Source of the DNA: Candidatus Margulisiibacteriota bacterium
Lineage (GTDB): Bacteria > Margulisbacteria > WOR-1 > O2-12-FULL-45-9
Reading direction: 5' to 3'
DNA: 64,000 bases
Assembly: GCA_041658745.1 (NCBI GenBank)
Contig: JBAZZP010000003.1
Coordinates: 3,811-67,810, forward strand
In this document: piece by piece, positions 1,048 to 59,207 of the stretch
How the letters are laid out: each line of letters starts with the position of its first letter
Numbering within the stretch: position 1 is the first letter of the stretch
Notes under the pieces: model-generated
Told to the model about the DNA's origin: nothing
Database searches by the model: none
Seen by the model: only the letters and a program-made list of their open reading frames with translations
Made by a program: the position numbers and the translations under genes

Positions 1048-1061
1048 ACATTTTTTTGTAT

Positions 1062-1089
1062 CTTGTTTCTTGTAACTTGTATCTTTATA
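1062..1089 (+). repeat. Heptamer array (CTTGTNN) x ~4, intergenic cinA-recA
   Basis: cttgttt|cttgtaa|cttgtat|ctttata, read directly from the sequence. Confidence 0.8.
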
Positions 1090-2152: not shown

Positions 2153-3700
2153 ATGTTTGCAGAAATAATGTTTGGAATAGGAATAGTAACCCTCATCGCT
2201 GGTATCGCTAGTTTGGTTTTTATCGGTGGACGCCAAAAGGCCACGGACCTAAAATTAAAGATTGCCGAAGAGTCGGCCAAGCGTATCCTAGAAGACGCTA
2301 AAAAAGAGGCAGAGAGAACCAAAAAAGAAGGTTTATTAGAGGCAAAGGATATCGAGCTAAGACTCCGCTCTGAAGTTGAAAAAGAAAGCCGGGAGCGAAA
2401 AGGTGAGCTTTCGGGAGTCGAAAAAAGACTAGATGCCAGGGAAGATCGGTTAGACAACCGTGAAAAAGAAGTCCAAAAGGCCGAGGCTAGCAACAAAAAG
2501 ACTCAGGAAGAATTACAGCAAACCAAAGAAATTCTCGACAAATCCAAAGAACAATATATCAAGGATTTGGAAAGAGTAGCCGCCTTGTCCCGTGAAGATG
2601 CCAAAAAAGAATTGCTGGCTAAACTGGATGGCGAATTAACCAAAGAATTTGGCGAAAAGATCAAATTTAATGAAGAAAAAATAAAGAACGAATCCGACAA
2701 AAAGGCCCGCGAAATTTTGGCTACGACTATTCAACGCTGCGTAGTCGACCATGTGGTTGAAACTACTACCAGTATGGTAGAACTGCCATCGGATGATATG
2801 AAGGGAAGGATTATTGGTCGCGAAGGACGCAATATTCGGGTATTTGAAAGTTTAACTGGGGTTGACTTGATCGTGGATGATACCCCCGAAGCCGTCATTT
2901 TATCCAGCTTTAATCCACTGCGCCGTGAAATCGCCCGCCTCACCCTCCAAAAACTAATGGCTGACGGCCGTATTCACCCAACACGAGTAGAAGAAATGTA
3001 CAAAAAATCACAAGAAGAAGTAAAAGCGGCCATGTGGGAAGCCGGTGAACAAGCCGCCATTAAAACTGGCGTGCAAGGCTTACCTTCCGTCCTGGTTCAA
3101 CTCCTAGGAAGATTAAATTATCGCACCAGCTACGGACAAAATGTTTTGCAACATTCAGTTGAAATGGCCATGGTAGCTGGCATGTTAGCCGGTGAGCTCG
3201 GTGCCAATATTAACTTAGCCAAACGGGCCGCCCTGCTCCATGATATCGGCAAAGCGGTTGATCAAGAGACCGAAGGAACCCATACTCGGCTCGGAGTTAT
3301 GCTCGCCCAAAAAGCCGGCGAATCCCCCGAAATATTGCATGCAATCGAAGCTCATCACAATGACGTAGAACCCAAAACCATCGAAGCTATCATTGTGCAA
3401 GTTTGTGATGCTATCTCGGCTGGAAGACCGGGCGCCCGCCGTGATACCCTTGATGCCTATATTAAGCGCTTAGAAAAATTAGAGACCGTGGCAAAATCTT
3501 TTGCCGGGGTTGAAAAATGTTATGCCATCCAGGCTGGACGTGAAGTCAGAGTCATCGTTGAGCCAAACCGGATTGATGATAATGCCGCCGCTAAGATGGC
3601 TCATGATATCGCCAAAAAAATCGAATCTGAGCTCGAGTATCCCGGCGAGGTCAAAGTAACCGTCATCCGTGAAATCCGTGCTAGCGATATTGCCAAATAA
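2153..3700 (+). CDS. rny: Ribonuclease Y
   Basis: N-terminal TM segment, long Lys/Glu coiled coil, KH domain ('GRIIGREGRNIRVFE') and HD domain ('LLHDIGKA'). AAGGAG SD. Confidence 0.95.
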   Translation: MFAEIMFGIGIVTLIAGIASLVFIGGRQKATDLKLKIAEESAKRILEDAKKEAERTKKEGLLEAKDIELRLRSEVEKESRERKGELSGVEKRLDAREDRLDNREKEVQKAEASNKKTQEELQQTKEILDKSKEQYIKDLERVAALSREDAKKELLAKLDGELTKEFGEKIKFNEEKIKNESDKKAREILATTIQRCVVDHVVETTTSMVELPSDDMKGRIIGREGRNIRVFESLTGVDLIVDDTPEAVILSSFNPLRREIARLTLQKLMADGRIHPTRVEEMYKKSQEEVKAAMWEAGEQAAIKTGVQGLPSVLVQLLGRLNYRTSYGQNVLQHSVEMAMVAGMLAGELGANINLAKRAALLHDIGKAVDQETEGTHTRLGVMLAQKAGESPEILHAIEAHHNDVEPKTIEAIIVQVCDAISAGRPGARRDTLDAYIKRLEKLETVAKSFAGVEKCYAIQAGREVRVIVEPNRIDDNAAAKMAHDIAKKIESELEYPGEVKVTVIREIRASDIAK

Positions 3701-5447: not shown

Positions 5448-8279
5448 TCATAAAAGATCAGCTAAACGGGAAGCAATAATCTTTTGCATTTCGGCTAATT
5501 CGAGCAAGCGGGCTCTTTGCTTTTCAACGGCATCGGGGGTTGCCTTGGCAACAAAATCGTTATTGGCCAACAACTTCTGCAATCTGGCCATTTCAGCACT
5601 AATTTTTTCTTTCTCTTTTGCCAAACGTTCTCTTTCTTTATTTATATCGATCAATCCCTTAAGCGGCACAAAGAATTGAACTTCCGATACCAGTCCACTG
5701 GCAGACTGTTCGGGTTTTGTTAATATTTTTTCAATCACCTCAATTTTAGAGGCTTTTGCCAGCATTTTAATAAGTGGCTGATTTTGACTGATAATTTCCC
5801 GCTCTTCTTTATTCGGCGCTTCAAATACGATTTCAATTTCGCTAGTCTGCACGCCCATTTCAGCTTTAATGTTTCTTAGTTTAGTCACAATCTCCATCAA
5901 TAGCCCTAACGCTTTTTCTGCAGCAGCATCAATCTTGTCTTCTTCCACCTTCGGCCACTCCGCCAGCATTATGCTTTGAGTATTGGAATTTATAGTTTGT
6001 TTGTCACTTGTATCTTGTATCTTGGAAATTATTGTCTGGTAGATTTCCTCCGTAATAAACGGCATAAAAGGATGCAGCAGCTTTAACGTTCCATCTAATA
6101 CGTAAAACAAAATATGGGATACTTTCTCTTTCTTTTTTGCGTCTTCTGAATAAAGATCAATTTTGGATATTTCAACGTACCAATCACAAAACTCTCCCCA
6201 CAAGAAGTCATACAGAGTCCGCGCCGCATCGCCAAAACTATAACTTTCCAACAGCTCGGTTACTTTCTTGATCGTCTGCTGATAGCGAGAAATAATCCAC
6301 TTATCTGCTAATCCCAAATCTTTTGGAATTTTAGAATTGAATTTTGTATTTTCCTTGTTACTTGTTTCTTGTGTCTTGTTACTTGCTTCCTGCCCGCCAG
6401 CCATCGCTGCGAACCGGCTAACATTCCAAATCTTGTTACAAAAATTGCGCGCTTCGGTAATTTTCTCTTGGGTCAACTTAATGTCCTGCCCCTGGCCAGT
6501 GATTAATGAAATCAGAGCGAAACGCAGAGCATCCGCTCCCACTTTATCGATAATCTCAATCGGGTCAATCACATTGCCAAAGGACTTACTCATCTTTTTG
6601 CCCGAGGCATCGCGCACCAAACCATGGATAAAAACGGTATGAAACGGGGCTTCTTTCATAAAATGCATCCCAGTCATGATCATGCGTGATACCCAGAAGG
6701 TAATAATGTCGTAACCGGTGACCAAAACACTTGTGGGATAAAAAGTTTTTAAATCTTTGGTTTCGTCAGGCCAGCCCAAGGTTGAAAAGGGCCACAGCGC
6801 CGACGAAAACCAGGTATCAAACACGTCAGGATCTTGCTCCAAATGCATTCCCCCGCATTTTGGACACTTTTCTGGTTTTTTTTCAGAAACGATAATTTCA
6901 TTACATTCATTTGTCATTTGACATTTGTCATTTGACATTCCACAACAGTACCACGCCGGTATCCGATGCCCCCACCAAAGCTGCCTAGAAATACACCAGT
7001 CTTTTAAATTCACCATCCAATCGATATAAACCTTGGTCCAGCGATCGGGAGCAAAATTTATTTTGCCTTCTTCCACAACGCGAATGGCTTCTCTTGCCAT
7101 ATCTTTTACTTTTACATACCATTGATCAGAAAGATAAGGCTCAATAATTGATTTGCAGCGATAGCATTCGCCCACCGAGTTTTCATAATCTTCGATGTTT
7201 TCAATAAAGCCGCCCTGCTCCAATTTTTCAACCAATTTTTCACGCGCTTTAAACCGATCAAGCCCAGCGATTTCTTCAACGCCCGTTCTCTCCGTTCCCG
7301 TCAGTTCATTCAGTGTAATCTTCGCTTCTGTGCTAAGAATATTGATCCGTGGCAATCCGTGTCTTTCGCCCATCTCAAAATCGTTGGGATCGTGAGCCGG
7401 AGTAACTTTTACCGCACCGGTTCCAAAAGCAGCATCCACATATTCATCTTTGATAATCGGGATCAAACGATTAACCAGCGGCAGCACCAGCATCTGTCCG
7501 ATCAAATGTTTATAACGGGAATCTTCGGGATTGACTGCTACCGCCGTATCTCCCAGCATCGTCTCCGGCCTAGTGGTAGCTACAATAATAAAGTTTGAAT
7601 TTTGTATATTGTGATTTGTAATTTCCTTGTTACTTGTATCTTGTCTCTTGTTACTTGCAAGATAATATTTGATATGCCAGAGCTTGCCTTTCTTCGTCTC
7701 ATGTTCTACTTCGATATCAGAAATGGCTGTCCCGCACTTAGGGCACCAGTTCACCAAGCGTTTACCGCGATAGATTAACCCTTCCTTATATAGTGTAACG
7801 AATTCATGGGTGACAGCCTTAGAAAGCCCAGCATCCATGGTAAAGCGCTCTCTGCTCCAATCTAGCGAGCTACCAAGCCGTCTTAATTGGCGGGTGATAT
7901 TGCCGCCGTATTCTTCTTTCCACTTCCATACTCTTTTTAAAAATTCTTCCCTCCCTAATTGCTCTTTAGTAAGCCCCTCTGCCCGCAAAGCTTTTACCAC
8001 CACGTTTTGAGTAGCAATTCCGGCATGGTCTGTTCCAGGAAGCCACAGAGTATTAAAGCCCTGCATTTTCTTGTAGCGAATCAAAACGTCTTGGATCGAA
8101 TTGTCCAATGCATGCCCCATGTGCAGATTACCGGTAACATTAGGGGGAGGGATAACGATGGTAAAGGGCGGCTTAGAAGAATCTGGGTCAGGCGCAAACA
8201 AATGCTTTTCTTCCCAGTTTTTATACCATTTTTTCTCGACTTCAGTTGGATTATAGATTTTAGCAATTTCTTCAGCCAT
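5448..8279 (-). CDS. valS: Valine--tRNA ligase
   Basis: 'PPNVTGNLHMGH' (HIGH) and 'KMSKSFGN' (KMSKS) motifs, a CPKCG zinc knuckle and a C-terminal coiled coil. Carries four in-frame heptamer-repeat insertions (see repeats). Confidence 0.97.
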   Translation of the reverse strand: MAEEIAKIYNPTEVEKKWYKNWEEKHLFAPDPDSSKPPFTIVIPPPNVTGNLHMGHALDNSIQDVLIRYKKMQGFNTLWLPGTDHAGIATQNVVVKALRAEGLTKEQLGREEFLKRVWKWKEEYGGNITRQLRRLGSSLDWSRERFTMDAGLSKAVTHEFVTLYKEGLIYRGKRLVNWCPKCGTAISDIEVEHETKKGKLWHIKYYLASNKRQDTSNKEITNHNIQNSNFIIVATTRPETMLGDTAVAVNPEDSRYKHLIGQMLVLPLVNRLIPIIKDEYVDAAFGTGAVKVTPAHDPNDFEMGERHGLPRINILSTEAKITLNELTGTERTGVEEIAGLDRFKAREKLVEKLEQGGFIENIEDYENSVGECYRCKSIIEPYLSDQWYVKVKDMAREAIRVVEEGKINFAPDRWTKVYIDWMVNLKDWCISRQLWWGHRIPAWYCCGMSNDKCQMTNECNEIIVSEKKPEKCPKCGGMHLEQDPDVFDTWFSSALWPFSTLGWPDETKDLKTFYPTSVLVTGYDIITFWVSRMIMTGMHFMKEAPFHTVFIHGLVRDASGKKMSKSFGNVIDPIEIIDKVGADALRFALISLITGQGQDIKLTQEKITEARNFCNKIWNVSRFAAMAGGQEASNKTQETSNKENTKFNSKIPKDLGLADKWIISRYQQTIKKVTELLESYSFGDAARTLYDFLWGEFCDWYVEISKIDLYSEDAKKKEKVSHILFYVLDGTLKLLHPFMPFITEEIYQTIISKIQDTSDKQTINSNTQSIMLAEWPKVEEDKIDAAAEKALGLLMEIVTKLRNIKAEMGVQTSEIEIVFEAPNKEEREIISQNQPLIKMLAKASKIEVIEKILTKPEQSASGLVSEVQFFVPLKGLIDINKERERLAKEKEKISAEMARLQKLLANNDFVAKATPDAVEKQRARLLELAEMQKIIASRLADLL
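5984..6027 (+). repeat. CTTGTNN-family element inside valS (copy 1)
   Basis: tggaatttatagtttgtttgtca + cttgtat|cttgtat|cttggaa. Encodes 'QDTSDKQTINSNTQS' in the valS frame. Confidence 0.8.
6325..6388 (+). repeat. CTTGTNN-family element inside valS (copy 2, 5 units)
   Basis: ggaattttagaattgaattttgtattttc + cttgtta|cttgttt|cttgtgt|cttgtta|cttgctt. Encodes 'SNKTQETSNKENTKFNSKIP'. Confidence 0.85.
6908..6939 (+). repeat. Heptamer array (CATTTGN) x ~4.5 inside valS
   Basis: catttgt|catttga|catttgt|catttga|catt (equivalently 14 nt x 2.3). Encodes 'MSNDKCQMTNEC' between the WYCCG and CPKCG knuckles. Confidence 0.85.
7594..7660 (+). repeat. CTTGTNN-family element inside valS (copy 3, 5 units)
   Basis: tttgaattttgtatattgtgatttgtaatttc + cttgtta|cttgtat|cttgtct|cttgtta|cttgcaa. 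Encodes 'SNKRQDTSNKEITNHNIQNSNF'. Confidence 0.85.
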
Positions 8280-8285
8280 AGCTTA

Positions 8286-8294
8286 ATTTTAGCA
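8286..8294 (-). promoter_or_regulatory. Extended -10 box TGCTAAAAT, 6 nt upstream of the valS ATG (leaderless-type)
   Basis: The minus strand reads TGCTAAAAT-TAAGCT-ATG. No SD is possible. The encoded N-terminus, 'MAEEIAKIYNP..KWY', is canonical for ValRS. Confidence 0.5.
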
Positions 8295-8349
8295 CGAAAT
8301 AACCTGCTCCTTAAGTGAAACTTTTGCCAAAAAGGGCGGATATAGACTT

Positions 8350-8925
8350 ATGAGGAGAATGCCCTTATTTATCAAAGCACCCATGATTGCCATTATTGCC
8401 CTATTTTGCTTTTTGGCCTTTTCGGGCAATATCAAAATAATCGATAATGAAAAAGAATATATTACCCTGCTTTTTCTCCAGCAAAGAGTCCTGGACTTTG
8501 CACAAAAGTACAGCGGCAGAGACGTAATCGTAGTTAGCAAAAAAGACCACCTACTTTTTTATTGCCGAGATGGAAAAATCGTAAAAAATGATTACTGGAA
8601 CGGTTTTAATGTTAGCTTCCCAGTCAAAGTATCCCTTGCCAGCCGCTATTTCTTTACTCCGGAAGGAGAGATGTTTATCGATGCTAAAAATGCCAATAGC
8701 CGTTATACTCTATTCCTTAAACTTAGCGTTCCCAGTGCTTATGGCATTCATGGGGCTTCAACTCGCCTTGCTTCCCATCTCGATAAGATGGAAACCATTA
8801 ACCCTAATTACAGTTTTGTAACCAAAAAAGATGATACCAGAGGCTGTGTCGCCGTTGAAAACCGGGTGATTAAATATTTATTTGCCAAAGTGGATGTAAA
8901 TACGCCGGTTTTAATTATGCCGTAA
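8350..8925 (+). CDS. Putative L,D-transpeptidase (YkuD-fold) with signal/anchor
   Basis: N-terminal hydrophobic segment. 'YGIHGAS...(x30)...TRGCVAVEN' resembles the YkuD H...(S/T)xGC(I/V) catalytic motif. Confidence 0.55.
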   Translation: MRRMPLFIKAPMIAIIALFCFLAFSGNIKIIDNEKEYITLLFLQQRVLDFAQKYSGRDVIVVSKKDHLLFYCRDGKIVKNDYWNGFNVSFPVKVSLASRYFFTPEGEMFIDAKNANSRYTLFLKLSVPSAYGIHGASTRLASHLDKMETINPNYSFVTKKDDTRGCVAVENRVIKYLFAKVDVNTPVLIMP

Positions 8926-8940
8926 TTAAAGGAGATTGTT

Positions 8941-10401
8941 ATGAGTGTTACCAATTTTCGTCCCCTTCCGCCCCGAAAAGTTTTTGTTGAAAGCCTAACC
9001 CGTCGGTGGAGAGCCAAACACTATCAACCAGACCAAACCTTGCCCCGCATCCCATTGCGAATGCATGTAATGCAAATGGTTTGTGCAGCAGCCATTTCTC
9101 TACTTGATGCCCCACATGCTACAAAAGATGCGATTCGCTCAGCCTTATTTCCTTTTGCTGGATTAGCAGTCGGCAAGACTCAAAATGAACATGACAGAAC
9201 AATTGATTTTAACAATATTACCACTCATGCCCAAGAGATAGAGTATGCTGACCCCAACAAAGCGACGCTTGTCCTCGGTGGGATTGAATGCTCAAAAACC
9301 AAAACCCGCCTGCTCTCTATGACCGGAAAAGAATTTTATATTGCCGAAATCCGATCAGAAAGCGGAGCTTTTAATGGCATAACGGTCCCCATGTTAGCCG
9401 GCATCGGTAATTCGGCAGAAGGTTTTTTTCATAATAATCTAATCCCTTTTCTGTTAGGTCTAGGTTGCCACATAATTTTAATCGACCAGCCAGGAATTGC
9501 AAAAAATTTACACTACGAGACAGAAAAGCCCAGGGTTATGGCACTAGTTGACGAAATCCTGCCGGTTGTCTGTAAATATTTGGCAGATAAAAAGTATAAT
9601 GTCCATTGGGTTGCATATAGCCAAGGAGGCATGACTTTTAAGATATTTAAAGCTAAATTTGAAAAATGTATTCACGAAAATCCCCGATTTGCAGATACTG
9701 TAAAATCTAGCAATTGTCTTGGTTCGCCTTATCTTATCCTCGCCAATGCCCATCCGCTTTACGCCATAATTTTGGGATTGTCCGAACTATTGAAACACTC
9801 CTCTTCAATAAGAAAATGGCTCCCAGCCGTCCCCTACCAGAAACTTTTGGAAATAATCGGAGATGAATGGTACAAAATTGATTTTGATAGTTTATTAATC
9901 GGCAATCATTGGGGGCTTAGCTTAATTTCATCAGAAAAAAACCCGTCTTTTAATAAAGCTCAATCAGCCGAGTGCATGAGAAATGGCTTCAAGCCAATAC
10001 CAACCAAAGAACTTCTTTGGTATGTGGAACGATCACGCCTTGGTTCTCTCCCTTACTTAAACGAAGGTCTTGCCACCGTTGCTGCAGACCAGCTAGATGT
10101 TGATATTTCTGGAGTAGAAGACCCCTTAAGCCGTGCACACACACTTGATTATATGTATGATCTCACTAATTTTTCTTCTTCAATTTTTGGGCTAACACCA
10201 AAAACCAAAGTTATTGTTGACACAACTTCTGCACGGCATAAAACTGCATTACAAGACGTTAAGGACGGGTATACACACCTTGGAATCGTGATACATGCCA
10301 GCCATATGGATCTTGTTTTTCATCCGGGGGTTCGCGAAATAATCAAAGCCTCGATAGATGCAAGATTAGCGCGATTAGCCGCGGCAAATGGAATGGCCTA
10401 A
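8941..10401 (+). CDS. Hypothetical alpha/beta-hydrolase-like protein (AxSxG lipase-type elbow)
   Basis: 'HWVAYSQGGMTF' nucleophile-elbow-like motif, 'ILIDQPG' strand and C-terminal 'ASHMDLVFHP' His motif. SD 'AAAGGAG' upstream. No closer family recognised. Confidence 0.45.
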   Translation: MSVTNFRPLPPRKVFVESLTRRWRAKHYQPDQTLPRIPLRMHVMQMVCAAAISLLDAPHATKDAIRSALFPFAGLAVGKTQNEHDRTIDFNNITTHAQEIEYADPNKATLVLGGIECSKTKTRLLSMTGKEFYIAEIRSESGAFNGITVPMLAGIGNSAEGFFHNNLIPFLLGLGCHIILIDQPGIAKNLHYETEKPRVMALVDEILPVVCKYLADKKYNVHWVAYSQGGMTFKIFKAKFEKCIHENPRFADTVKSSNCLGSPYLILANAHPLYAIILGLSELLKHSSSIRKWLPAVPYQKLLEIIGDEWYKIDFDSLLIGNHWGLSLISSEKNPSFNKAQSAECMRNGFKPIPTKELLWYVERSRLGSLPYLNEGLATVAADQLDVDISGVEDPLSRAHTLDYMYDLTNFSSSIFGLTPKTKVIVDTTSARHKTALQDVKDGYTHLGIVIHASHMDLVFHPGVREIIKASIDARLARLAAANGMA

Positions 10402-10405
10402 AAAC

Positions 10406-12391
10406 TCACGCCGTCTCGATGGGATCAACGTCGATGGCAATTTTAATATCGCGCGGAACAATCATTTTGGCTAAACTTTCCATTACAGCCGTTCGCATTT
10501 GCGAAAGATCCTGCCCCTTCAATAAAATATGATAGCGCCACTGGCCACGCACTTTTGATACTGCCGCAGGAGCCGGCCCCAATATCCCGCTTGTCAGCCG
10601 CTGGGAGAGCAAAGTTTTAAGGTCGCCGGCAATTTGTTGTGTCTTCTTTTCATCAATGCCACTTAGCATTAAAATAATCAGCTGAGCATAAGGCGGATAA
10701 CCTAGTTCTTGCCTGATCTTTATTTCTTGCTCATAAAATTGTTGAAAATCATGCTTAGCGGCGGTTTGGATCGCATAGTTTTCCGGATCATGGGTTTGAA
10801 TAATTACTTTCCCCGGCAAATGATGTCTGCCCGCTCGACCCGCTACTTGCGTTAACAACTGGAAAGTTCTCTCGGCCGCCCGGAAATCTGGAATTTTTAA
10901 AGCCGTATCCGCAGATACCACTCCGATTAGAGTTACATTGGCTACATCCAATCCTTTAGTTACCATTTGTGTACCAATTAAGACATTGGCTTTTCCTTCC
11001 GCAAAAGCAGCAAAGAAAACATCGTGCGATCCGCGCTTACTAGTGGCATCCCGATCCCAACGTAAGATTTTGGCCTGTGGGAAAACATCGGCCACCTCTT
11101 TTTCAATTCTTTGCGTCCCCGTTCCCACAAAGCGAATGTTGGTCCCATGACATTTTTGGCAGACTACATTACTGGCACAGGACCAGCCACAGCGAGTACA
11201 GCGTAAACATTTTTTACTAGTATCATAGTTGAGTGAAATAGAACAATGCGGACATTGGATGGTTGATCCACAAGCCTGACACATTAAAAAAGTAAAAAAA
11301 CCTAATCGATTAATAAATAAGATTGCTTGTTCGCCTTTGGATAAAGTGTCATACAGTTCTTCCCGCAATTTTTCTGATAATAAGAAGCTCTTATCTTTTC
11401 GCATATCGATAATTTCAACCGGCGGCAGCGGGCGGCTATCAATTCTTATCGGCAAAGATAATAATTTATACTCTCCCACTAAAGCCTTAAAATAACTCTC
11501 AAGCGCCGGAGTGGCTGACCCCAAGATGGTCACAGCTTGATGCAGTTTAGCTAGTTGCAGAGCGGCTTCTCTAGCATGATAGCGCGGGCTTTGGTCGGAC
11601 TTATAAGTATTTTCAAATTCCTCATCCACCACAATTAACCCCAAATTCTCCACTGGAGAAAAGATCGAAAGGCGAGTTCCTACAATAATGCGCGCTTTGC
11701 CCCTTTTGATGTCTTCGCCGGCTTCGCGGCGTTGTTTTAAAGTAAGATCACTGTGTAAAACCGCCACGATATCGCCAAACCGATCACGAAAACGATTAAT
11801 AATTTGGGGTGCCAGCGATATTTCGGGCACCAAAATCAGCGCCGACTTTCCTTTGTCCAAAACCTTAGCCGTCGCTTGCAAATACACCTCCGTCTTCCCC
11901 GAACCTGTTACCCCATGTAAAAGAAAAGTTTCTGTTCGCGTAGTATTAATCGCTACGTTGATCTGATCGAGAGCTTTTTGCTGATCAATTGTTAAATCCC
12001 GCTTCTTTTCTATCTTTGTTTGAATATTAGAATTTGTGATTTGTGATTTATTTGCATCTTGTTTCTTGTGTCTTGGATTCTTTACCCCGATTGGCAAAAT
12101 CGATCTAATCACCGTCCCCAAAAACGCACAATAGTATTCCGCCATCCATTTAACTAGCCCAGCCTGTTTTTCATTAAACAATGGCTGTTCACTAATCACT
12201 TCGCGGATTTCTTTAACTTCTGGCACATCGGCTTTTTCTACAAAACCAACAACATACCCCTCTTCGCTCCGTTTGCCAAAAGGAACCATAACTTTACTGC
12301 CAATGGCAACGTCAAATTCGGTCGGCAGCGAATAATGGTAGATTTTATCGGTAAATTTGGAAATTTTGGCAAGGATTACTTCGGCGAACAT
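10406..12391 (-). CDS. priA: Primosomal protein N' (replication restart helicase PriA)
   Basis: 'LLHGVTGSGKTEVY' Walker A, 'VVDEEF' DExx box, Cys-rich zinc region 'CQACGSTIQCPHCSISL...CTRCGW...CQKCHG' and 'AGRAGR' motif. Confidence 0.95.
   Translation of the reverse strand: MFAEVILAKISKFTDKIYHYSLPTEFDVAIGSKVMVPFGKRSEEGYVVGFVEKADVPEVKEIREVISEQPLFNEKQAGLVKWMAEYYCAFLGTVIRSILPIGVKNPRHKKQDANKSQITNSNIQTKIEKKRDLTIDQQKALDQINVAINTTRTETFLLHGVTGSGKTEVYLQATAKVLDKGKSALILVPEISLAPQIINRFRDRFGDIVAVLHSDLTLKQRREAGEDIKRGKARIIVGTRLSIFSPVENLGLIVVDEEFENTYKSDQSPRYHAREAALQLAKLHQAVTILGSATPALESYFKALVGEYKLLSLPIRIDSRPLPPVEIIDMRKDKSFLLSEKLREELYDTLSKGEQAILFINRLGFFTFLMCQACGSTIQCPHCSISLNYDTSKKCLRCTRCGWSCASNVVCQKCHGTNIRFVGTGTQRIEKEVADVFPQAKILRWDRDATSKRGSHDVFFAAFAEGKANVLIGTQMVTKGLDVANVTLIGVVSADTALKIPDFRAAERTFQLLTQVAGRAGRHHLPGKVIIQTHDPENYAIQTAAKHDFQQFYEQEIKIRQELGYPPYAQLIILMLSGIDEKKTQQIAGDLKTLLSQRLTSGILGPAPAAVSKVRGQWRYHILLKGQDLSQMRTAVMESLAKMIVPRDIKIAIDVDPIETA
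12021..12078 (+). repeat. CTTGTNN-family element inside priA (plus ATTTGTG x2.5)
   Basis: tgaatattaga + atttgtg|atttgtg|atttatt + tgcat + cttgttt|cttgtgt|cttggat. Encodes 'KKQDANKSQITNSNIQT'. Confidence 0.8.
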
Positions 12392-12397
12392 AAAATA

Positions 12398-12406
12398 AGT
12401 ATAGCA
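12398..12406 (-). promoter_or_regulatory. Extended -10 box TGCTATACT, 6 nt upstream of the priA ATG (leaderless-type)
   Basis: The minus strand reads TGCTATACT-TATTTT-ATG. Confidence 0.5.
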
Positions 12407-12433
12407 GAGAACCTAAATGGGTTTATAGCTTGG

Positions 12434-13810
12434 CTATATTTTCTTTCCCCATTTTACAATATGATTGGCAGTCATCCCACCAGCTTGAGTAAATGCTCCA
12501 CCAATATAAACATTCCCGGAATTGTCACTAACAATAGTGTTAACTATCCCATTCACCCCAGCTCCTAGCTCTTGCCAAGCACTGCCATTCCATTTGGCTA
12601 TATAATTAGAAAGATTTCCCTCAGCAGAAGAAAAATTCCCACCGGCATACAATGTCCCATAGCTATCTACACACAGAGCATTTAAAGATGCATTAAAAGC
12701 CCCTCCAACTGCTTCCCAGGTGTTTACGTTCCACTCCAAAACATGGTGCGAAGCGCCACTATACGTTTCTACCCCGCCAGCATATACTTTGGAATTTGTT
12801 GTATCATAGGCCAAGGAAGTAATTCTATAAAAGTTACACGACATGGCTTCCCAAGTACTTTCATCCTCAACCCATTTAACAATCCTATTGCTGCTCAAAG
12901 ACCCCACATTATTAAACCAGCCCCCGAGATAAAGATTGTTAGCGCCATCTTCTGCCAAACTAAAAACAATTGAATCAACCCCTCCAATTCCACTCCAATT
13001 TGTCCCATCCCATTTAGCTATATTATTAACCGTATTTCCTTCAATCGTTGAAAAAAACCCTCCAACATATAATTTTGTATTTTTCATCAACAGGCAAAAA
13101 GTCGCTCCTGATTGCTGTTGCTCAATTCCTCCTCCCAAAGCCTGCCAACTAGATCCATTCCATTTGGCAATGTAATTTGCAGTATTTCCATCAGCCGTTG
13201 TGAAATATCCTCCCGCGTATACTAAACCATTAGGGTTATCACAGATAATAGAATTCACAACATTATTAAATCCGCTGCCCAAGGCTTCCCAAGTTTGCAG
13301 TAAAGCGCTCCATTTTGCTATTCGCGTGGCGCCAACCCCACCAGCAAAAGAAAAGCTACCTCCGGCATAAAGATTCCCCGAACTATCTCTCGCTATCGCA
13401 TTTACATCACCATTGGTCCCACTTCCGATGGCTTGCCACCAATAAAGATCATACCAATTATTAACGATGGGGCTATTTGATAAACCCGTTTTAATAGCAA
13501 TAGCCTTAACGGTTTTCGAGCTTTCAAGCGAGATGGGTTCGGTATAAAGGGTTGAGGAAGCAGAGGGAGCTGTCCCATCTAGCGTGTAATAAATCGAAGA
13601 CCCTGCTGTACTACATTCTAGGGTGACATAGGTACTATTAACCTCATATGAACCAGAACTTTGCGAAAAGCTTGGGGCAGCAACTTGAGGAAGAGTGGTT
13701 GTTGTCGTTGTGGGGGTAGAAATTGTTTGACCACAGCCTACTAACCATAAACAAACCATCGTTAATCCGCATATGACCAAAGCCGGAAAAATTGCATTTT
13801 TGTTATTCAT
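12434..13810 (-). CDS. Lipoprotein with a chitobiase/hexosaminidase-C-like Ig domain plus a 7-bladed beta-propeller repeat
   Basis: Lipobox 'LVGCG'. 'SSIYYTLDGTAPSASSTLYTEPISL...VKAIAI' domain. Seven ~48-aa repeats of '(V)N(A)I..D..GNLYAGG.F..A.G..AN.IAKWNGS.W..LG.G'. GGGGGGAAGG SD. Confidence 0.7.
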   Translation of the reverse strand: MNNKNAIFPALVICGLTMVCLWLVGCGQTISTPTTTTTTLPQVAAPSFSQSSGSYEVNSTYVTLECSTAGSSIYYTLDGTAPSASSTLYTEPISLESSKTVKAIAIKTGLSNSPIVNNWYDLYWWQAIGSGTNGDVNAIARDSSGNLYAGGSFSFAGGVGATRIAKWSALLQTWEALGSGFNNVVNSIICDNPNGLVYAGGYFTTADGNTANYIAKWNGSSWQALGGGIEQQQSGATFCLLMKNTKLYVGGFFSTIEGNTVNNIAKWDGTNWSGIGGVDSIVFSLAEDGANNLYLGGWFNNVGSLSSNRIVKWVEDESTWEAMSCNFYRITSLAYDTTNSKVYAGGVETYSGASHHVLEWNVNTWEAVGGAFNASLNALCVDSYGTLYAGGNFSSAEGNLSNYIAKWNGSAWQELGAGVNGIVNTIVSDNSGNVYIGGAFTQAGGMTANHIVKWGKKI

Positions 13811-13825
13811 CCTTCCCCCCCATAA

Positions 13826-15049
13826 TTATTTGTTTTGATCTATTATCAATTCAACAATTTTATTGACAAGCACATTTGCAGCCTTTTCTTTAGGCTCCCT
13901 TGAATATTTCGCAGTTTTACCATTTTTATCAATTAGCTGATACTCCATATTATCCCCATCAAACGAATCAATCCCATTGGCTACAATAAAATCCAAATCC
14001 TTTTCTTTTAACTTTTGCTTTGCATTTTTAATTAAATCTTCGGTTTCCAGCGCAAACCCAACATGGATTTTCCCTTTACGCTCTTTTCTCTGCGCAAGGG
14101 TCATTAAAATATCTTGTGTAGGAACCAGCTCGAGTATTAAATTTTGTTTCGTTTTTTTAATTTTATATTTTGGTATTGTTTGGGATTTGGGATTTGGGAT
14201 TTGGGATTTATAGTCAGCTACTGCAGCCGCCATAACGACAATGTCTGCATGAGGATAATTTTGCAAAACGGCATCCAGCATCTCTGCCGCCGATTCAACT
14301 TTGATAATTTTTATTCCATCTGGAGCAGACAAATTAGTTGGAGCCGAAATTAAAGTAACCTCTGCCCCTCTTTCTCTCGCTGCTTCAGCAATCGCATAGC
14401 CCATTTTGCCTGATGAACGATTTGAAATATAACGAACGGGATCAATCGCTTCTCTTGTGCCCCCGGCTGTGACTAAAACCTTTTTCCCTTTTAAATCTTG
14501 TTCTTTGACAAAGTGACCGAGAACCATAGAAACAATTTCTTCCGGTTCCGCCATCCTCCCAATATCTTCCACCCCACAAGCTAACCTTCCCTCACATGGA
14601 CCAATCATCTCAAATTCCAACTTCTTTAATTTCTCAACGTTTTCTAAAACAATTGGATTGCGCCACATGTTAGCATTCATCGCCGGAGCAATTATTTTTT
14701 TAGCCATTGAGGCCATCACAATTGTGGTTAAAGCATCATCAGCAATGCCCCCCGCCAGTTTACCAATAACATTAGCCGTGCAAGGGGCAATTAAAACTAG
14801 TTCAGCTTTTTCAGCCACAGCAATGTGTGGGACGGGCATAGAAGCAAGAGCTGGGTCAAAAAGATTGGTAATAACTGGATTACCGGAAAGGGTTCGAAAA
14901 GTTAGCGGAGAAACCATTTCGGTGGCTTCACTAGTCATTACCACCCAGACATCGGCCCCTAACTTAACTAAACGTGAAACAATTTCGCAGGTTTTGTAAG
15001 CTGCGATTCCGCCAGTAACACCAACTAGGATGGTTTTGCCTTTTAGCAT
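13826..15049 (-). CDS. coaBC: Bifunctional phosphopantothenoylcysteine decarboxylase / phosphopantothenate--cysteine ligase
   Basis: N-terminal flavoprotein 'ILVGVTGGIAAYK' and C-terminal CoaB 'ISNRSSGKMG' and 'AAAVADYK...KIKK' motifs. Follows rpoZ as in Bacillota. Confidence 0.95.
   Translation of the reverse strand: MLKGKTILVGVTGGIAAYKTCEIVSRLVKLGADVWVVMTSEATEMVSPLTFRTLSGNPVITNLFDPALASMPVPHIAVAEKAELVLIAPCTANVIGKLAGGIADDALTTIVMASMAKKIIAPAMNANMWRNPIVLENVEKLKKLEFEMIGPCEGRLACGVEDIGRMAEPEEIVSMVLGHFVKEQDLKGKKVLVTAGGTREAIDPVRYISNRSSGKMGYAIAEAARERGAEVTLISAPTNLSAPDGIKIIKVESAAEMLDAVLQNYPHADIVVMAAAVADYKSQIPNPKSQTIPKYKIKKTKQNLILELVPTQDILMTLAQRKERKGKIHVGFALETEDLIKNAKQKLKEKDLDFIVANGIDSFDGDNMEYQLIDKNGKTAKYSREPKEKAANVLVNKIVELIIDQNK
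14179..14206 (+). repeat. Perfect heptamer array (TTTGGGA) x4 inside coaBC
   Basis: tttggga x4 read directly. Encodes 'SQIPNPKSQ' in the loop between the 'ADYK' and 'KIKK' CoaB motifs. Confidence 0.9.
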
Positions 15050-41985: not shown

Positions 41986-42062
41986 GATAGAAAGTGGACA
42001 GTAGACATTAGATAATAGGGTCAAGATTCACTGCCTATCATCTATTCTCTATTTTCTACTTG
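41986..42062 (+). repeat. Inverted degenerate heptamer arrays (AGTRGAY... / TCTAYTN...) downstream of the four-helix-bundle gene
   Basis: agtggat|agaaagtggac|agtagac|attagat|aataggg ... cctatca|tctattc|tctattt|tctactt. The central parts can pair (agataatagg / cctatcatct). Confidence 0.6.
42010..42056 (+). terminator. Hairpin + T-rich tract after the four-helix-bundle gene
   Basis: Stem agataatagg / cctatcatct (9 of 10 pairs), a 14-nt loop, then attctctattttct. Confidence 0.3.
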
Positions 42063-42132
42063 CTCCGAGCGAACTTGTACCGAGAGACATCGAGGTAGTC
42101 GAGGAGCTATCTACTTTCTAAATAGAATAACA

Positions 42133-42557
42133 TGGAGCTGAGGGGAGTCGAACCCCTGTCCGAAAAGGCAATTCCACCAGCCGCTACGAGCGTAGCTTTG
42201 ATTAAGTTTTCGTCCAGGAGTTGACCCAAAGCGGGGTTTTTCCCGGCCTATCCCCAATTTTGTTTTCCATCCTAGCCTTGAGAAACAACCAGGACAGTAG
42301 CCGTTAAAATAACGTCTTTATCTGGACCTAACAGCAAATCCAGGAGACGGGTCGCTTAATAAATTAAGCGGCGACTGCCGCTGCAACAGGTTGTACTGTG
42401 CACAGAGCTAAAAGCTGCTGTACTGTTCTTCCTGCTACTTTGGCGATTTGACTATCTGCATTTACAGATTTGCCACCTTTTTTAACGAGGTTATAGATGA
42501 CGTCCTCGGCTCGCAACTGATGCAACCACAACTTCCCGTCAATACCCTTACAGCCCC
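42133..42557 (-). ncRNA. ssrA: Transfer-messenger RNA (tmRNA, SsrA)
   Basis: The minus strand reads 5'-GGGGCTGTAAGGG...GGACAGGGGTTCGACTCCCCTCAGCTCCA-3'. The acceptor stem is GGGGCUG/CAGCUCC with a G3:U pair, followed by a T-arm and discriminator A. CCA is not encoded. The internal ORF ends ...PVAAAVAA-TAA. Confidence 0.9.
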
Positions 42558-57842: not shown

Positions 57843-59207
57843 TCAGTTTTGCAGGGCTTCTTGGATCGATCGAACCGCTATAATTTGAATTTTAATTTTG
57901 TTTACTGACTTATTATTAGCCTTCGGTATAATCGCTTTTTTAAAGCCCAATTTCTCAGCTTCTTTCAATCGCTGTTCAATTTGGCTGACCGAGCGGACTT
58001 CGCCGGTTAATCCTACCTCACCAATCACCAAACAATCCGGTTCAATTGGTTTATTTTTGTAGCAAGAAGCAATGGCTAAAGCCATCGGTAAGTCCATGGC
58101 GGGTTCTGTCACTTTAACCCCACCCGCTGCATTCACAAAAACATCCGCGGTAGATAATTTTAAACCTAACTGCCGCTCCAGTACCGCAATTACAATCGAG
58201 AGGCGGTTGAAATCAACCCCAGAGGCCTTACGCGTGGGATAAACCATCTTCGTAGGAGCCACCAACGCTTGAATTTCAACCAGCAATGGTCGCGTACCTT
58301 CTATCGCAGCCGTAACGACTGAACCGGAAGCATCTTTGGGCCGCTCAGATAAAAACACTTCTGAAGGATTGGGAACTTCAACTAACCCCTGCTCTTTCAT
58401 TTCAAAAATGCCAACTTCATTAGTTGAGCCAAAACGGTTTTTCTCGGCCCGCAGGATCCTGAACTGCTTATGTCTTTCGCCTTCAAAATAGAGGACAACG
58501 TCAACCATGTGTTCTAAAATTCTAGGCCCAGCAATGTTGCCTTCTTTGGTAACGTGGCCAACGATAAAAATAGGGATACCGCTTGATTTAGCAATGCCCA
58601 CCAGGTAATTGGCGCATTCTCTGACTTGTGATACCGAACCAGCAGCAGAAGATACATCTTCGCGAAACATAGTTTGGATCGAATCAATAATTAGATATTT
58701 GGGGTTACTATCACTGACGGCTTTTTCAATGGCAAACAGGTTTGTTTCGGGAAAGAGGAGCAAATTTTTCGACAGAGTTCCTAATCTTTCGGCTCGCAGG
58801 CGGATTTGCCGCGCCGATTCCTCTCCGCTTACATATAATACCTTGGAAGCTTTGCTCAAAGCTTCCGCTACTTGGAGGAGCATGGTTGACTTTCCAATCC
58901 CCGGCTCCCCTGACACCAAAACTACTGATCCAGCAACAATCCCACCGCCTAACACTCGATCAATTTCAGCAATGCCCGTTTCCGCCCTACTTTCATCATT
59001 GTAGTTAACATCGACAATTGATATCGGCTTTTCCGTTTGTATCTTGGAATTTGAATTTTGTAATTTATTTATAACTTGTGTCTTGTTACTTGTAACTTTC
59101 TCCTCGGTGAGACTATTCCACTCCCCACACGATTGGCACTGCCCACTCCAACCTGGAAAATCTTGCCCGCAAGATTGGCACACGAAGATAGTTTCTGATT
59201 TGCTCAT
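57843..59207 (-). CDS. radA: DNA repair protein RadA (Sms)
   Basis: N-terminal 'CQSCGQDFPGWSGQCQSCGEW' zinc finger, 'VSGEPGIGKSTMLLQ' Walker A, a 'KNRFG' motif and a Lon-like C-terminal domain. Confidence 0.95.
   Translation of the reverse strand: MSKSETIFVCQSCGQDFPGWSGQCQSCGEWNSLTEEKVTSNKTQVINKLQNSNSKIQTEKPISIVDVNYNDESRAETGIAEIDRVLGGGIVAGSVVLVSGEPGIGKSTMLLQVAEALSKASKVLYVSGEESARQIRLRAERLGTLSKNLLLFPETNLFAIEKAVSDSNPKYLIIDSIQTMFREDVSSAAGSVSQVRECANYLVGIAKSSGIPIFIVGHVTKEGNIAGPRILEHMVDVVLYFEGERHKQFRILRAEKNRFGSTNEVGIFEMKEQGLVEVPNPSEVFLSERPKDASGSVVTAAIEGTRPLLVEIQALVAPTKMVYPTRKASGVDFNRLSIVIAVLERQLGLKLSTADVFVNAAGGVKVTEPAMDLPMALAIASCYKNKPIEPDCLVIGEVGLTGEVRSVSQIEQRLKEAEKLGFKKAIIPKANNKSVNKIKIQIIAVRSIQEALQN
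59036..59098 (+). repeat. CTTGTNN-family element inside radA
   Basis: tttgtatcttggaatttgaattttgtaatttatttataa + cttgtgt|cttgtta|cttgtaa|cttt. Encodes 'TSNKTQVINKLQNSNSKIQT' in the linker after the zinc finger. Confidence 0.85.

What the first reader, a model, noticed from the sequence alone, without database searches (positions are those of the whole stretch)
5984..7660. A family of short heptamer-array elements (GAATTTTGT box + (CTTGTNN)3-5) inserted in frame into essential genes: three copies in valS, one each in priA and radA
Five coding copies lie at 5984-6027, 6325-6388, 7594-7660, 12021-12078 and 59036-59098. They share a flank resembling (G)GAATTT(T)GT followed 10-25 nt later by 3-5 tandem CTTGTNN units.

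In every coding copy the sense strand carries ACAAGNN. Because 7 is not a multiple of 3, the peptide cycles through all three frames. The result is related low-complexity peptides: SNKTQETSNKE..., QDTSNKEITNHNIQNSN, QDANKSQITNSNIQ, TSNKTQVINKLQNSNSKIQ. Each insert totals a multiple of 3 nt and sits in a linker or surface-loop position: after the RadA zinc finger, between the PriA N-domain and helicase, and in ValRS between conserved blocks.

This resembles two known phenomena. One is in-frame insertion of Rickettsia palindromic elements into protein genes. The other is the heptanucleotide STRR repeats of heterocystous cyanobacteria. I know of no description of an STRR-like heptamer element colonising aaRS, PriA and RadA coding sequence. 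Gain or loss of one unit would frameshift an essential gene, so either selection is strong or slippage is suppressed.
Basis: partly seen in the sequence, partly recalled or inferred. Interest (0 to 1): 0.75.

Follow-up and report, generated by a model that had tools for sequence, protein, structure and literature searches.

The report
In-frame heptamer repeat arrays in essential genes
Short tandem 7-base repeats sit in frame inside essential genes of this Margulisbacteria genome and its relatives, encode floppy hydrophilic loops, and change much faster than the genes around them, a habit not described before for repeats of this kind.

Summary
CTTGTNN arrays lie at all five stated coordinates, plus a sixth copy between cinA and recA. 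The window has 8 period-7 runs against 0.48 expected, with no excess at other periods. The organism is a Margulisbacteria/Saganbacteria (WOR-1) MAG.

The interpretation needs revision.
- The "GAATTTTGT box" is a degenerate second heptamer array, (AAATTCC)n on the sense strand, not a separate flank.
- valS carries four arrays, not three. coaBC and a DUF4912 gene carry other heptamer families.
- The arrays are not insertions private to this lineage. Orthologues across the phylum carry different heptamer-encoded peptides at the same loop or linker positions.
- In RadA a 9-unit (63 nt) array fills the native linker in the four relatives whose DNA was read, and nearly all 120 orthologues carry a linker peptide of the same class and length.
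- A relative with about 91% nucleotide identity has different unit families at both shared sites. Array identity is 53-56% against 87-91% in the flanks.
- Nothing suggests a transposon: no hairpin, no terminal repeats, variable length.

Best reading: resident STRR-like heptanucleotide microsatellites are remodelled at the DNA level by slippage and/or gene conversion. Selection keeps the reading frame, an A-rich sense strand and permissive loop positions. I found no prior description. I rate it a new variant of a known kind, of moderately high interest.

The parts
5448..8279 (-). valS (valine--tRNA ligase, 943 aa), host of four heptamer arrays
   Evidence: E = 6.7e-247 to 1GAX. Best non-self homologues are Margulisbacteria/WOR-1 proteins.
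7594..7660 (-). valS site 1 array (aa about 208-230, LASNKRQDTSNKEITNHNIQNSN): ACAAGNN x5, then AAATNNN-type units ending ACAAAATTCAAAC
   Evidence: It aligns to a gap in 1GAX and is coil with pLDDT below 50. L110 carries a CAGANNN array here; identity is 53% against 87-91% in the flanks.
6906..6939 (-). valS site 2 array (aa about 446-457, GMSNDKCQMTNEC) in the loop between the first two Cys of the zinc-knuckle insert. Unit is CAAATGA/CAAATGT (14-nt period)
   Evidence: Relatives carry SEIRNPKSE..., IKNEKLKIKNEG... and similar peptides at this site.
6325..6388 (-). valS site 3 array (aa about 630-650, EASNKTQETSNKENTKFNSKIP): ACAAGNN x5 plus AAATTC-type units
   Evidence: It lies between helices 604-629 and 657-678 with pLDDT below 50. 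41 of 45 nt are identical to the site 1 copy. P0002 has a shorter peptide of this class here (QDTSNKRQETNT) and L107 has an ACAAG-type run in valS (8903-8927).
5984..6027 (-). valS site 4 array (aa about 752-768, SKIQDTSDKQTINSNTQ): CAAGATA x3 plus degenerate units
   Evidence: It aligns to a gap in 1GAX. Residues 756-767 are coil with pLDDT below 50.
10406..12391 (-). priA (primosomal protein N', 661 aa)
12021..12078 (-). priA linker array (aa about 105-124, NPRHKKQDANKSQITNSNIQ): CAAGANN x3 plus AAATCAC x2 plus degenerate units
   Evidence: The linker is hypervariable across the clade. L110 has a different array here; identity is 56% against 88-89% in the flanks.
57843..59207 (-). radA (454 aa)
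59036..59098 (-). radA linker array: 9 heptamers = 63 nt = 21 aa (VTSNKTQVINKLQNSNSKIQT), ACAAGNN x3 plus a conserved AATAAA plus AAATTCC-type units
   Evidence: The same 63-nt architecture occurs in L106, L108 and L109 with other unit families. Nearly all 120 orthologues carry a linker peptide of the same class and length.
1056..1085 (.). Intergenic copy (TTGTATC TTGTTTC TTGTAAC TTGTATC) between the cinA stop (1047) and the recA ATG (1108). CTTGT lies on the transcribed strand of recA
   Evidence: There is no promoter-like match. It is absent from the same spacer in L081 and L083.
14177..14211 (-). (TCCCAAA)4.4, 100% matches by TRF, in frame in coaBC (…ADYKSQIPNPKSQTIPK…): a different heptamer family in the same genome
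21648..21683 (+). AACTCCN x4.6 in frame in a DUF4912 / glucodextranase-B-like protein (PQLLTPNSELQT)

Best explanation
These are resident heptanucleotide microsatellite arrays, of the STRR / long-SSR type, embedded in frame in protein-coding genes of a Margulisbacteria/Saganbacteria genome.

Each array is a run of about 6-9 degenerate 7-nt units. In this genome the units are mostly ACAAGNN grading into AAATTCC/AAATNNN on the sense strand. Because 7 is not divisible by 3, the array is read through all three frames and yields K/N/Q/T/S/E-rich peptides.

Shown:
- Arrays occupy a small set of permissive loop or linker positions.
- The same positions carry heptamer arrays of many different unit families across the phylum.
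- Arrays diverge about 4-5 times more than their flanks while staying in frame and heptameric.
- The sense strand is almost always the A-rich one.

Inferred:
- Periodicity is kept alive by a DNA-level process. Candidates are replication slippage in a 7-nt register and/or length-preserving gene conversion between arrays. This process homogenises and replaces units faster than point mutation erases them.
- Purifying selection removes every outcome that breaks the frame, puts the hydrophobic CTTGT strand in a soluble loop, or lands outside a tolerant loop.
- The encoded peptides are most likely neutral, disordered spacers rather than functional motifs.
For: Period-7 specificity:
- 8 runs against 0.48 expected in the window, with no excess at other periods.
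- 18 runs in 132 kb of relatives' valS loci against 26 in 1.33 Mb of unrelated bacteria.

Coding location:
- 39 of 41 runs in 273 kb of Margulis/Sagan DNA lie in open frames of at least 150 codons. One of these, at 1061-1081, is really intergenic, leaving 38 coding and 3 intergenic.

Orientation filter:
- 34 of 35 coding arrays have the A-rich strand as sense (p = 2e-9).
- Three-frame hydropathy is -1.44 for sense and +1.21 for antisense.

Loop placement.

Phylum-wide hot-spots with many unit families.
- Exact 8-aa translations of perfect heptamer repeats occur in 16/120 RadA, 8/120 PriA and 15/120 ValRS orthologues.
- Apart from 4 of about 80 matching windows, they lie at these positions, and there are none in shuffles.

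DNA-level concerted change:
- The RadA linker is 9 units in 5 genomes.
- Between the window and L106, position 1 of units 1-4 changes A to G in all four, at codon positions 1, 2, 3 and 1.
- IRN..IRN against ILN..ILN variants occur among orthologues.

Fast turnover:
- L110 has about 91% nucleotide identity to the window but carries different unit families at both shared sites.
- Array identity is 53% and 56% against 87-91% in the flanks.

No mobile-element anatomy: the minimum free energy is about 0 and z-scores are not negative for all six copies.
Against: - The mechanism itself is not observed. No read-level data were available to show unit-number variation.
- Slippage by 1 or 2 units would be lethal in these genes, so slippage alone is an awkward engine for rapid turnover.
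- Some features hint at copy-and-paste rather than purely local evolution. The same composite (ACAAG array plus ACAAAATTC) occurs at five sites here and in 21 metagenome contigs, but in 0 of 86 viral ACAAGNN arrays.
- valS copies at sites 1 and 3 are 41/45 identical.
- Two sites in L083 valS carry 32-mers that differ only at the first base, and the site 2 copy is identical to the one in L001.
- Statistical support for that paralogy is modest: p = 0.013 for the NN pattern, uncorrected for 15 pairs.
- Selection on the peptide or on an RNA/DNA-binding function cannot be fully excluded.
- The AF2 model is only of moderate quality (mean pLDDT 64.8).
Confidence: 0.6

Rival explanations
1. A small non-autonomous mobile element (MITE-, RPE- or cyanobacterial SDR-like), made of an ACAAG heptamer array plus an ACAAAATTC box, transposes or homes into genes. 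It survives only when it lands in frame in loops.
For: - The composite architecture recurs at 5 coding sites in 64 kb and in 21 metagenome contigs of varied GC content. It is absent downstream of 86 viral ACAAGNN arrays.
- valS site 1 and site 3 copies are 41/45 identical.
- In L090/L098 an inverted pair sits in a membrane protein.
- In sister lineage L107 a true dispersed palindromic element of about 95 nt occupies the same valS and radA sites in both orientations. Copy-and-paste colonisation of these sites therefore does occur in the clade.
Against: - There is no hairpin or inverted termini, no visible target duplications, and copy length and unit content vary.
- The box is in heptamer phase and is itself a degenerate array.
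- The RadA array is phylum-wide and 63 nt in all five linkers read as DNA.
- In the 91% relative the sites are not empty. They hold other arrays of similar length. Under insertion this needs precise replacement at the same spot.
- No transposase or reverse transcriptase was seen among the 10 window proteins scanned against Pfam.
Confidence: 0.2
2. The arrays are functional cis-elements. They would be binding sites in DNA or mRNA for a protein that reads 7-nt units, for example a cold-shock or S1-like protein. Alternatively the peptides themselves are selected linkers. Either way, periodicity is kept by selection and not by repeat dynamics.
For: - Periodicity and length persist at the RadA site across the phylum.
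- The central AATAAA (N-K) is conserved.
- One copy lies in the recA leader.
- The literature notes that CspB binds heptamer repeats one protein per unit, and proposes a regulatory role for TAACTGA repeats (PMC4679880).
Against: - Unit sequence differs between and within genomes: at least 8 families at the RadA site alone, and ACAAG against CAGA between 91% relatives. This argues against a sequence-specific reader.
- Many orthologues lack arrays at the ValRS sites.
- Concerted changes include a synonymous position, which peptide selection does not explain.
- The recA-leader copy is not conserved in relatives.
Confidence: 0.1
3. These are phase-variable contingency loci. Unit gain or loss deliberately switches the genes off and on by frameshift.
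For: The unit length is not a multiple of 3 and the arrays lie inside ORFs, which is the classical layout of frameshift switches (background in PMC4692102 and PMC8262952).
Against: - The hosts are single-copy essential housekeeping genes (valS, priA, radA, coaBC), where an OFF state is lethal or severely costly.
- The arrays are short (3-5 units per family) and imperfect, which lowers slippage.
- All genes are intact in every assembly examined.
Confidence: 0.03
4. Chance, compositional bias or assembly artefact.
For: The genome is moderately AT-rich (42.8% GC). Lys/Asn-rich low-complexity peptides are common in such genomes.
Against: - Dinucleotide shuffles give 0.48 runs against 8 observed, and only at period 7.
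- The same phenomenon occurs in independent assemblies from JGI, ENA, NCBI and Logan, at homologous sites.
- All reading frames are intact.
Confidence: 0.02

Closest known systems
Cyanobacterial STRR sequences and heptanucleotide long simple sequence repeats (Mazel et al. 1990 from my own knowledge; Mrazek et al. 2007 as summarised in PMC4679880 and PMC4692102)
   Same: Both are tandem 7-nt units with several unit families per genome. Over-representation is specific to period 7, taxonomic distribution is patchy, and the mechanism is unknown. Slippage with a 7-nt polymerase footprint has been proposed. The host phylum here is the sibling lineage of Cyanobacteria.
   Different: Known examples (Nostoc GGGGAYT, Xanthomonas GGGAATC, Beggiatoa/cyanobacterial TAACTGA) are concentrated in intergenic regions and under-represented in coding DNA. 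Here about 93% of arrays (38 of 41) are inside genes, including essential ones, and in frame. The unit sequences differ from STRR1-3. The arrays are short, imperfect and composite.
Rickettsia palindromic elements (RPE) inserted in frame in protein genes (from my own knowledge)
   Same: Both add extra, lineage-variable peptide segments at surface loops of conserved housekeeping proteins, encoded by repeated DNA. The same sites in sister lineage L107 do carry an RPE-like palindromic element.
   Different: RPEs are 100-150-nt palindromic elements of fixed length with recognisable copies. The window's arrays have no palindrome and no fixed length. They are tandem 7-mers that turn over in place.
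TAACTGA repeats inside ORFs of Beggiatoaceae and Microcystis (PMC4679880)
   Same: These are heptamer repeats read in three frames, giving a 7-aa periodic peptide (LSVISYQ). Orientation is constrained by stop codons, and the authors noted tolerance mainly at the protein periphery.
   Different: Those are rare exceptions, mostly in hypothetical proteins or at termini, with one unit family. Here arrays sit at internal loops of aaRS, PriA, RadA and CoaBC, at homologous hot-spots across a phylum, with many unit families and measurable rapid turnover.
Asn/Lys-rich low-complexity inserts in Plasmodium housekeeping proteins (from my own knowledge)
   Same: Both are hydrophilic low-complexity insertions between conserved blocks of essential enzymes, including aminoacyl-tRNA synthetases. 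They are generated by A-rich repeat DNA and are thought to be largely neutral.
   Different: Those occur in a eukaryote and are mostly trinucleotide or codon repeats. They have no 7-nt periodicity and no three-frame reading.

Membership tests
Heptanucleotide long SSR / STRR-type tandem repeats | Head-to-tail tandem copies of a 7-nt unit | tested here: met
   TRF reports period 7 (or 14) at all sites. The heptamer register is visible through each whole element.
Heptanucleotide long SSR / STRR-type tandem repeats | More frequent than composition predicts, specifically at period 7 | tested here: met
   8 runs against 0.48 in shuffles, with no excess at other periods. The rate is about 7-fold that of 1.33 Mb of unrelated bacteria.
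Heptanucleotide long SSR / STRR-type tandem repeats | Dispersed at many loci with several unit families in one genome | tested here: met
   9 arrays in 64 kb, of families ACAAGNN, AAATTCC-like, CAAATGA, TCCCAAA and AACTCCN. Only 64 kb plus 3.8 kb of the genome could be read.
Cyanobacterial STRR in the strict sense | Unit sequences STRR1-3 (CCCCAGT, TTGGTCA, CAACAGT), heterocystous cyanobacterial host, mainly intergenic location | tested here: not met
   The units differ. The host is Margulisbacteria/Saganbacteria. 38 of 41 arrays are coding. The unit sequences are recalled from my own knowledge.
RPE-like / REP-like in-frame palindromic elements | Palindromic sequence able to form a stable hairpin | tested here: not met
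   The DNA fold of all six copies gives an MFE of 0 to -1.2 kcal/mol and z-scores of -0.3 to +1.2.
RPE-like / REP-like in-frame palindromic elements | Dispersed copies of similar length and recognisable full-length similarity | tested here: inconclusive
   Copies span 44-67 nt with different unit content. The best pair is 41/45 identical. Other pairs share only 7-18-nt words.
RPE-like / REP-like in-frame palindromic elements | In-frame location at surface loops of conserved proteins | tested here: met
MITE | Terminal inverted repeats and target-site duplication | tested here: not met
   There is no inverted repeat within the elements. No flanking direct repeats were seen on inspection of the alignment with L110. 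Inspection was by eye only.
Phase-variable contingency SSR | Long perfect tract in a dispensable surface, restriction-modification or virulence gene, with frameshifted alleles in populations | tested here: not met
   Hosts are valS, priA, radA and coaBC. Tracts are short and imperfect. All orthologues are intact. Population reads were not available.

The most novel reading that the evidence does not exclude
Margulisbacteria/Saganbacteria, and possibly the whole Cyanobacteria-sibling group together with other uncultivated lineages, may possess a dedicated or at least specific DNA-level process that writes and rewrites 7-nt tandem repeats. Candidates are a polymerase or repair activity with a 7-nt step, or templated gene conversion between arrays. 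This process would act even inside essential genes. Loops of housekeeping proteins would then be continuously re-encoded by whichever heptamer family is currently active in that genome. It would also be the long-sought origin of cyanobacterial STRR sequences.
Probability: 0.2. Interest if true: 0.85.

Novelty: new variant of a known kind. Interest (0 to 1): 0.62.

Why it matters
Heptanucleotide repeats have been known in cyanobacteria since 1990 and were shown in 2007 to be the most over-represented long SSR class in many bacteria. Their origin is still unexplained, and they have been treated as intergenic features.

Here they are embedded in frame in essential genes of the sibling phylum of Cyanobacteria, at homologous sites in dozens of lineages. 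That gives a natural experiment. The flanking conserved codons provide a clock and an alignment anchor. Rates and modes of array turnover can therefore be measured directly, including unit replacement, concerted change and frame-preserving indels.

The finding also shows that bacterial housekeeping proteins can carry rapidly evolving, repeat-encoded disordered loops, much as in Plasmodium. This matters for annotation, for orthologue alignment and phylogenomics of candidate phyla, and for structure prediction.

Tried and rejected
- Rfam scan of the window gave only a tmRNA at 42130-42557, with nothing at the arrays.
- The promoter and terminator scan of the cinA-recA spacer found no promoter-like site through the intergenic copy.
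- DNA folding of the six copies showed no structure, so the palindromic-element idea was dropped for this genome.
- The exact 10-aa test for perfect heptamer translations was too strict, with only 2-6 proteins per family. An 8-aa test with shuffled controls replaced it.
- The viral-contig scan for ACAAGNN x4 returned at least 120 hits. These are mostly perfect single-unit microsatellites without the AAATTC part, so they say little about this family.
- I tried to extend the window along its own contig. Look-ups for ClpC and RadA were not on record. The RecA look-up gave only 3.8 kb more, with no further arrays.
- Literature searches for Margulisbacteria or Saganbacteria repeats, STRR in coding regions, and the peptide SEIRNPK found nothing relevant.
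- The genome-contig scan with ValRS returned mostly distant phyla. Only L001 and L002 were from the clade. The remainder served as a control set.
- The statistical test for paralogy of valS copies 1 and 3 is only marginal once multiple pairs are considered. I therefore do not claim copy-and-paste for the heptamer arrays.


Full report
**1. What is in the sequence**

The five stated segments exist as described. (CTTGNNN) in three or more tandem copies occurs on the + strand at 6007-6027, 6354-6388, 7626-7660, 12058-12078 and 59075-59095. There are none on the - strand. GAATTTTGT occurs at 6339, 7597 and 59053.

The host ORFs are:
- valS, 5448-8279 on the - strand, 943 aa, E = 6.7e-247 to T. thermophilus ValRS 1GAX.
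- priA, 10406-12391 on the - strand.
- radA, 57843-59207 on the - strand.

The translations give the quoted peptides. Tandem Repeats Finder reports period 7 at all sites. It also reports further period-7 arrays:
- 6906-6939, CAAATGA/14-mer, a fourth array in valS.
- 14177-14211, (TCCCAAA)4.4, perfect.
- 21648-21683, AACTCCN x4.6.

The last two lie in frame in coaBC and in a DUF4912 protein. The copy at 1056-1085 lies between the cinA stop (1047) and the recA start (1108, preceded by AAGGAGG), so it is intergenic.

**2. Is it more than chance?**

Yes, and only at period 7. The window has 8 period-7 runs (at least 3 units, at least 85% self-match) against 0.48 +/- 0.73 (maximum 3) in 100 dinucleotide-preserving shuffles. 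Periods 5, 6 and 8-15 show no excess.

**3. Whose genome is it?**

The best homologues of ValRS, RadA and PriA are all from Candidatus Margulisbacteria / Saganbacteria (candidate division WOR-1), the sibling lineage of Cyanobacteria. The window is positions 3786-67785 of contig ena:ERZ27247322:k141_143239, which is 221,984 bp.

**4. Anatomy: the "box" is a second heptamer array**

Written on the sense strand, each element keeps a 7-nt register along its whole length. The RadA copy reads ACAAGTA ACAAGAC ACAAGTT ATAAATA AATTACA AAATTCA AATTCCA AGATACA AAC.

GAATTTTGT is the reverse complement of ACAAAATTC. That places it inside a run of degenerate AAATTCC-type units, and (AAATTCC)3 translates exactly as KFQIPNS. 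The elements are therefore composite degenerate heptamer arrays of about 6-9 units, not a box plus an array. None of the six copies has any hairpin potential: MFE is 0 to -1.2 kcal/mol and z-scores are not negative.

**5. The phenomenon is phylum-wide and site-specific**

*ValRS.* In an alignment of 28 ValRS from the clade, the four array positions of the window are the four indel hot-spots of the protein.
- Some relatives are empty there (for example P0079, P0094, P0110).
- Others carry quite different low-complexity peptides: SEIRNPKSE..., the exact translation of (TCCGAAA)n; KSEILNPKSEQ at two sites of one protein; ENPKSKIQNPNKIPNPNN; IKNEKLKIKNEG.

*RadA.* Nearly all 120 orthologues have a linker peptide of about 21 aa of the same class after the zinc finger. 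Examples are IRNPKSEIRNKFQIPNSKTQ, ILNPKSEILNK... and LQTSKLKIQNKLQIPNTK. Against S. pneumoniae RadA (5LKM) the window has only about 5 extra residues there. The array therefore occupies the native linker rather than being a net insertion.

*PriA.* The linker between the 3'BD and the helicase is hypervariable and often of the heptamer type.

*DNA of relatives.* There are 18 period-7 runs in 132 kb of relatives' valS loci, against 26 in 1.33 Mb of unrelated bacteria. By inspection of those run positions, only one of 78 control valS genes (L053) contains arrays, while 8 of 9 clade valS genes do.

*Peptide test.* A stretch of at least 8 aa that is exactly the translation of a perfect heptanucleotide repeat occurs in 16/120 RadA, 8/120 PriA and 15/120 ValRS orthologues. 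None occur in shuffled proteins. Apart from 4 of about 80 matching windows (three near the ValRS N-terminus, one at PriA about 620), all lie at the hot-spots. At least 8 different unit families are seen at the RadA site alone.

**6. Location and orientation**

Of 41 period-7 runs in 273 kb of clade DNA, 39 lie in open frames of at least 150 codons. One of these is the cinA-recA copy, so the split is about 38 coding to 3 intergenic, with no depletion from genes.

In 34 of 35 coding arrays the sense strand is the A-rich one (binomial p = 2e-9). Translated in all three frames, the sense strand is hydrophilic (mean Kyte-Doolittle -1.44) and the antisense strand is hydrophobic (+1.21). In metagenome loci L090 and L098 an inverted pair sits in an O-antigen-ligase-like membrane protein. 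There the CTTGT-sense copy is read as FVCILYLVSCIL next to a predicted membrane stretch.

In ValRS the arrays align to gaps in 1GAX. In the AF2 model, residues 211-227, 452-457, 630-648 and 756-767 are coil with pLDDT below 50, lying between modelled secondary-structure elements. The model is only moderate (mean pLDDT 64.8), and other regions are also of low confidence.

**7. Dynamics**

L110 (GCA_964544645.1) has about 91% nucleotide identity to window 7318-12900. It covers two arrays, and at both the flanks are conserved while the array belongs to another family of similar length.
- valS site 1: ACAAGNN... in the window against CAGATAG CAGAAAG ... CAGACAA in L110.
- priA: KNPRHKKQDANKSQITNSNIQ in the window against KIRMTNSECRRNEQSPKINE in L110.

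Identity is 33/62 and 23/41 within the arrays, against 87-91% in the flanks.

In the RadA linker, the window and L106 (81% aa identity) align unit by unit. They differ by A to G at position 1 of each of units 1-4, which falls on codon positions 1, 2, 3 and 1, and one of these changes is synonymous. Peptide selection does not predict that, but unit homogenisation does.

Periodicity therefore persists at the same site across a phylum, while unit identity changes quickly and in concert. This calls for a DNA-level process. I infer slippage in a 7-nt register, as proposed for heptamer SSRs by Mrazek et al. 2007 (summarised in PMC4679880), and/or gene conversion between arrays. Conversion has the advantage of preserving length and frame.

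**8. Is it a mobile element?**

Evidence for a copy mechanism exists but is modest.
- The ACAAG-plus-ACAAAATTC composite recurs at five sites here and in 21 metagenome contigs. None of 86 ACAAGNN arrays in viral contigs has it.
- valS copies 1 and 3 are 41/45 identical. Their variable NN positions match at 8/10 (p = 0.013, not corrected for 15 pairs).
- The 32-mer TAAATCCGAAATCCTAAATCCTAAATCCGAAC occurs in L083 valS and in L001. A second L083 valS site carries a copy that differs only at the first base.

Against a mobile element:
- There are no termini and no palindrome, and copy lengths vary.
- The RadA array is ancient.
- The sites are filled in close relatives, not empty.

Notably, sister lineage L107 carries a genuine dispersed palindromic element of about 95 nt (CCCTCACCCGC...CCCCTCTCCC...GGGAGGGAGAGGG...). 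It lies in frame at valS site 1 (reverse orientation), at valS site 4 and in the radA linker.

**9. Comparison with the literature**

Known heptamer repeats are described as intergenic and under-represented in coding DNA. These include STRR, Nostoc/Xanthomonas GGGNATC (PMC4692102) and Beggiatoaceae/cyanobacterial TAACTGA (PMC4679880). In-ORF cases are rare, peripheral and mostly in hypothetical proteins.

Searches for such repeats in Margulisbacteria or Saganbacteria, for STRR within genes, and for the SEIRNPK peptide returned nothing relevant. The library covers only part of the literature, so absence is not proof.

**10. Verdict**

It is partly wrong on three others: it is not a box-plus-array insertion element, it is not lineage-specific, and RadA shows no net insertion.

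The best explanation (confidence about 0.6) is resident in-frame heptanucleotide microsatellites under rapid concerted turnover and strong selective filtering. I rate the finding a new variant of a known kind, with interest 0.62.

Noticed in passing
L107:7620-7780, 9195-9355, 9936-10095 (GCA_030018645.1 JASEHX010000011.1): A GC-rich palindromic element of about 95 nt (CCCTCACCCGC…CCCCTCTCCCATCCTCCTTCGTCCTTCGGACTTCGGCGGACAGGGAGGGAGAGGGG…) is inserted in frame three times in a sister Margulisbacteria lineage. The sites are valS site 1 (reverse orientation), valS site 4 and the radA linker. It is read in different frames (SPHPLPLSLPVRRSPKDEGGWERGAGH / PLSHPPSSFGLRRTGRERE / LPPSPILLRPSDFGGQGGRGVRGE). 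This is an RPE-like case at the same permissive sites.
   Followed up: partly
L090:about 3371-3404 and L098:about 1011-1044 (metagenome contigs Ga0180015_1002880 and Ga0180732_1045990): An inverted pair of ACAAG/CTTGT arrays lies inside an O-antigen-ligase-like membrane protein. It is read as KDTRYKIQGYKQIQNNKFKISN and then NLNFVCILYLVSCIL. The same protein also has GIRNYELGIRNNELGIRNN, another heptamer-encoded repeat.
   Followed up: partly
L050, L051, L057 (Selenomonadaceae/Selenomonadales), L030 (Bacterium BMS3Abin06), L053: In the control set of unrelated bacteria, heptamer arrays are concentrated in a few lineages (AATTAGG, TAGTGAT, CAGCTAT, AGTCAGA...). The uncultured bacterium L053 has two arrays in opposite orientation inside its valS (941-967 and 2810-2841). 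In-frame heptamer arrays are therefore not confined to Margulisbacteria.
   Followed up: no
window:42130-42557 (-): A tmRNA gene (Rfam RF00023, 148.6 bits). A weak period-7 run at 42041-42061 lies just beside it.
   Followed up: no
window:53653-57786 (-) and 8941-10401 (+): Large ORFs of 1377 aa and 486 aa have no Pfam match at E <= 0.001.
   Followed up: no
window:6906-6939 (valS aa 445-458): The 14-nt-period array contributes Cys codons (CCGMSNDKCQMTNEC) inside the zinc-knuckle insert of ValRS. P0003 and P0052 have near-identical peptides (KMTNDKCQMTNEC, MSNVQCPMSNGC). This array is therefore older than the ACAAG ones and may add or shift potential metal ligands.
   Followed up: partly
L083 and the window contig: L083 (the ValRS P0055 organism, 52.6% GC across the locus, AAATCCG/T arrays) comes from the same ENA sample (ERZ27247322) as the window contig. 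Two Margulisbacteria with different dominant heptamer families therefore co-occur in one community.
   Followed up: no
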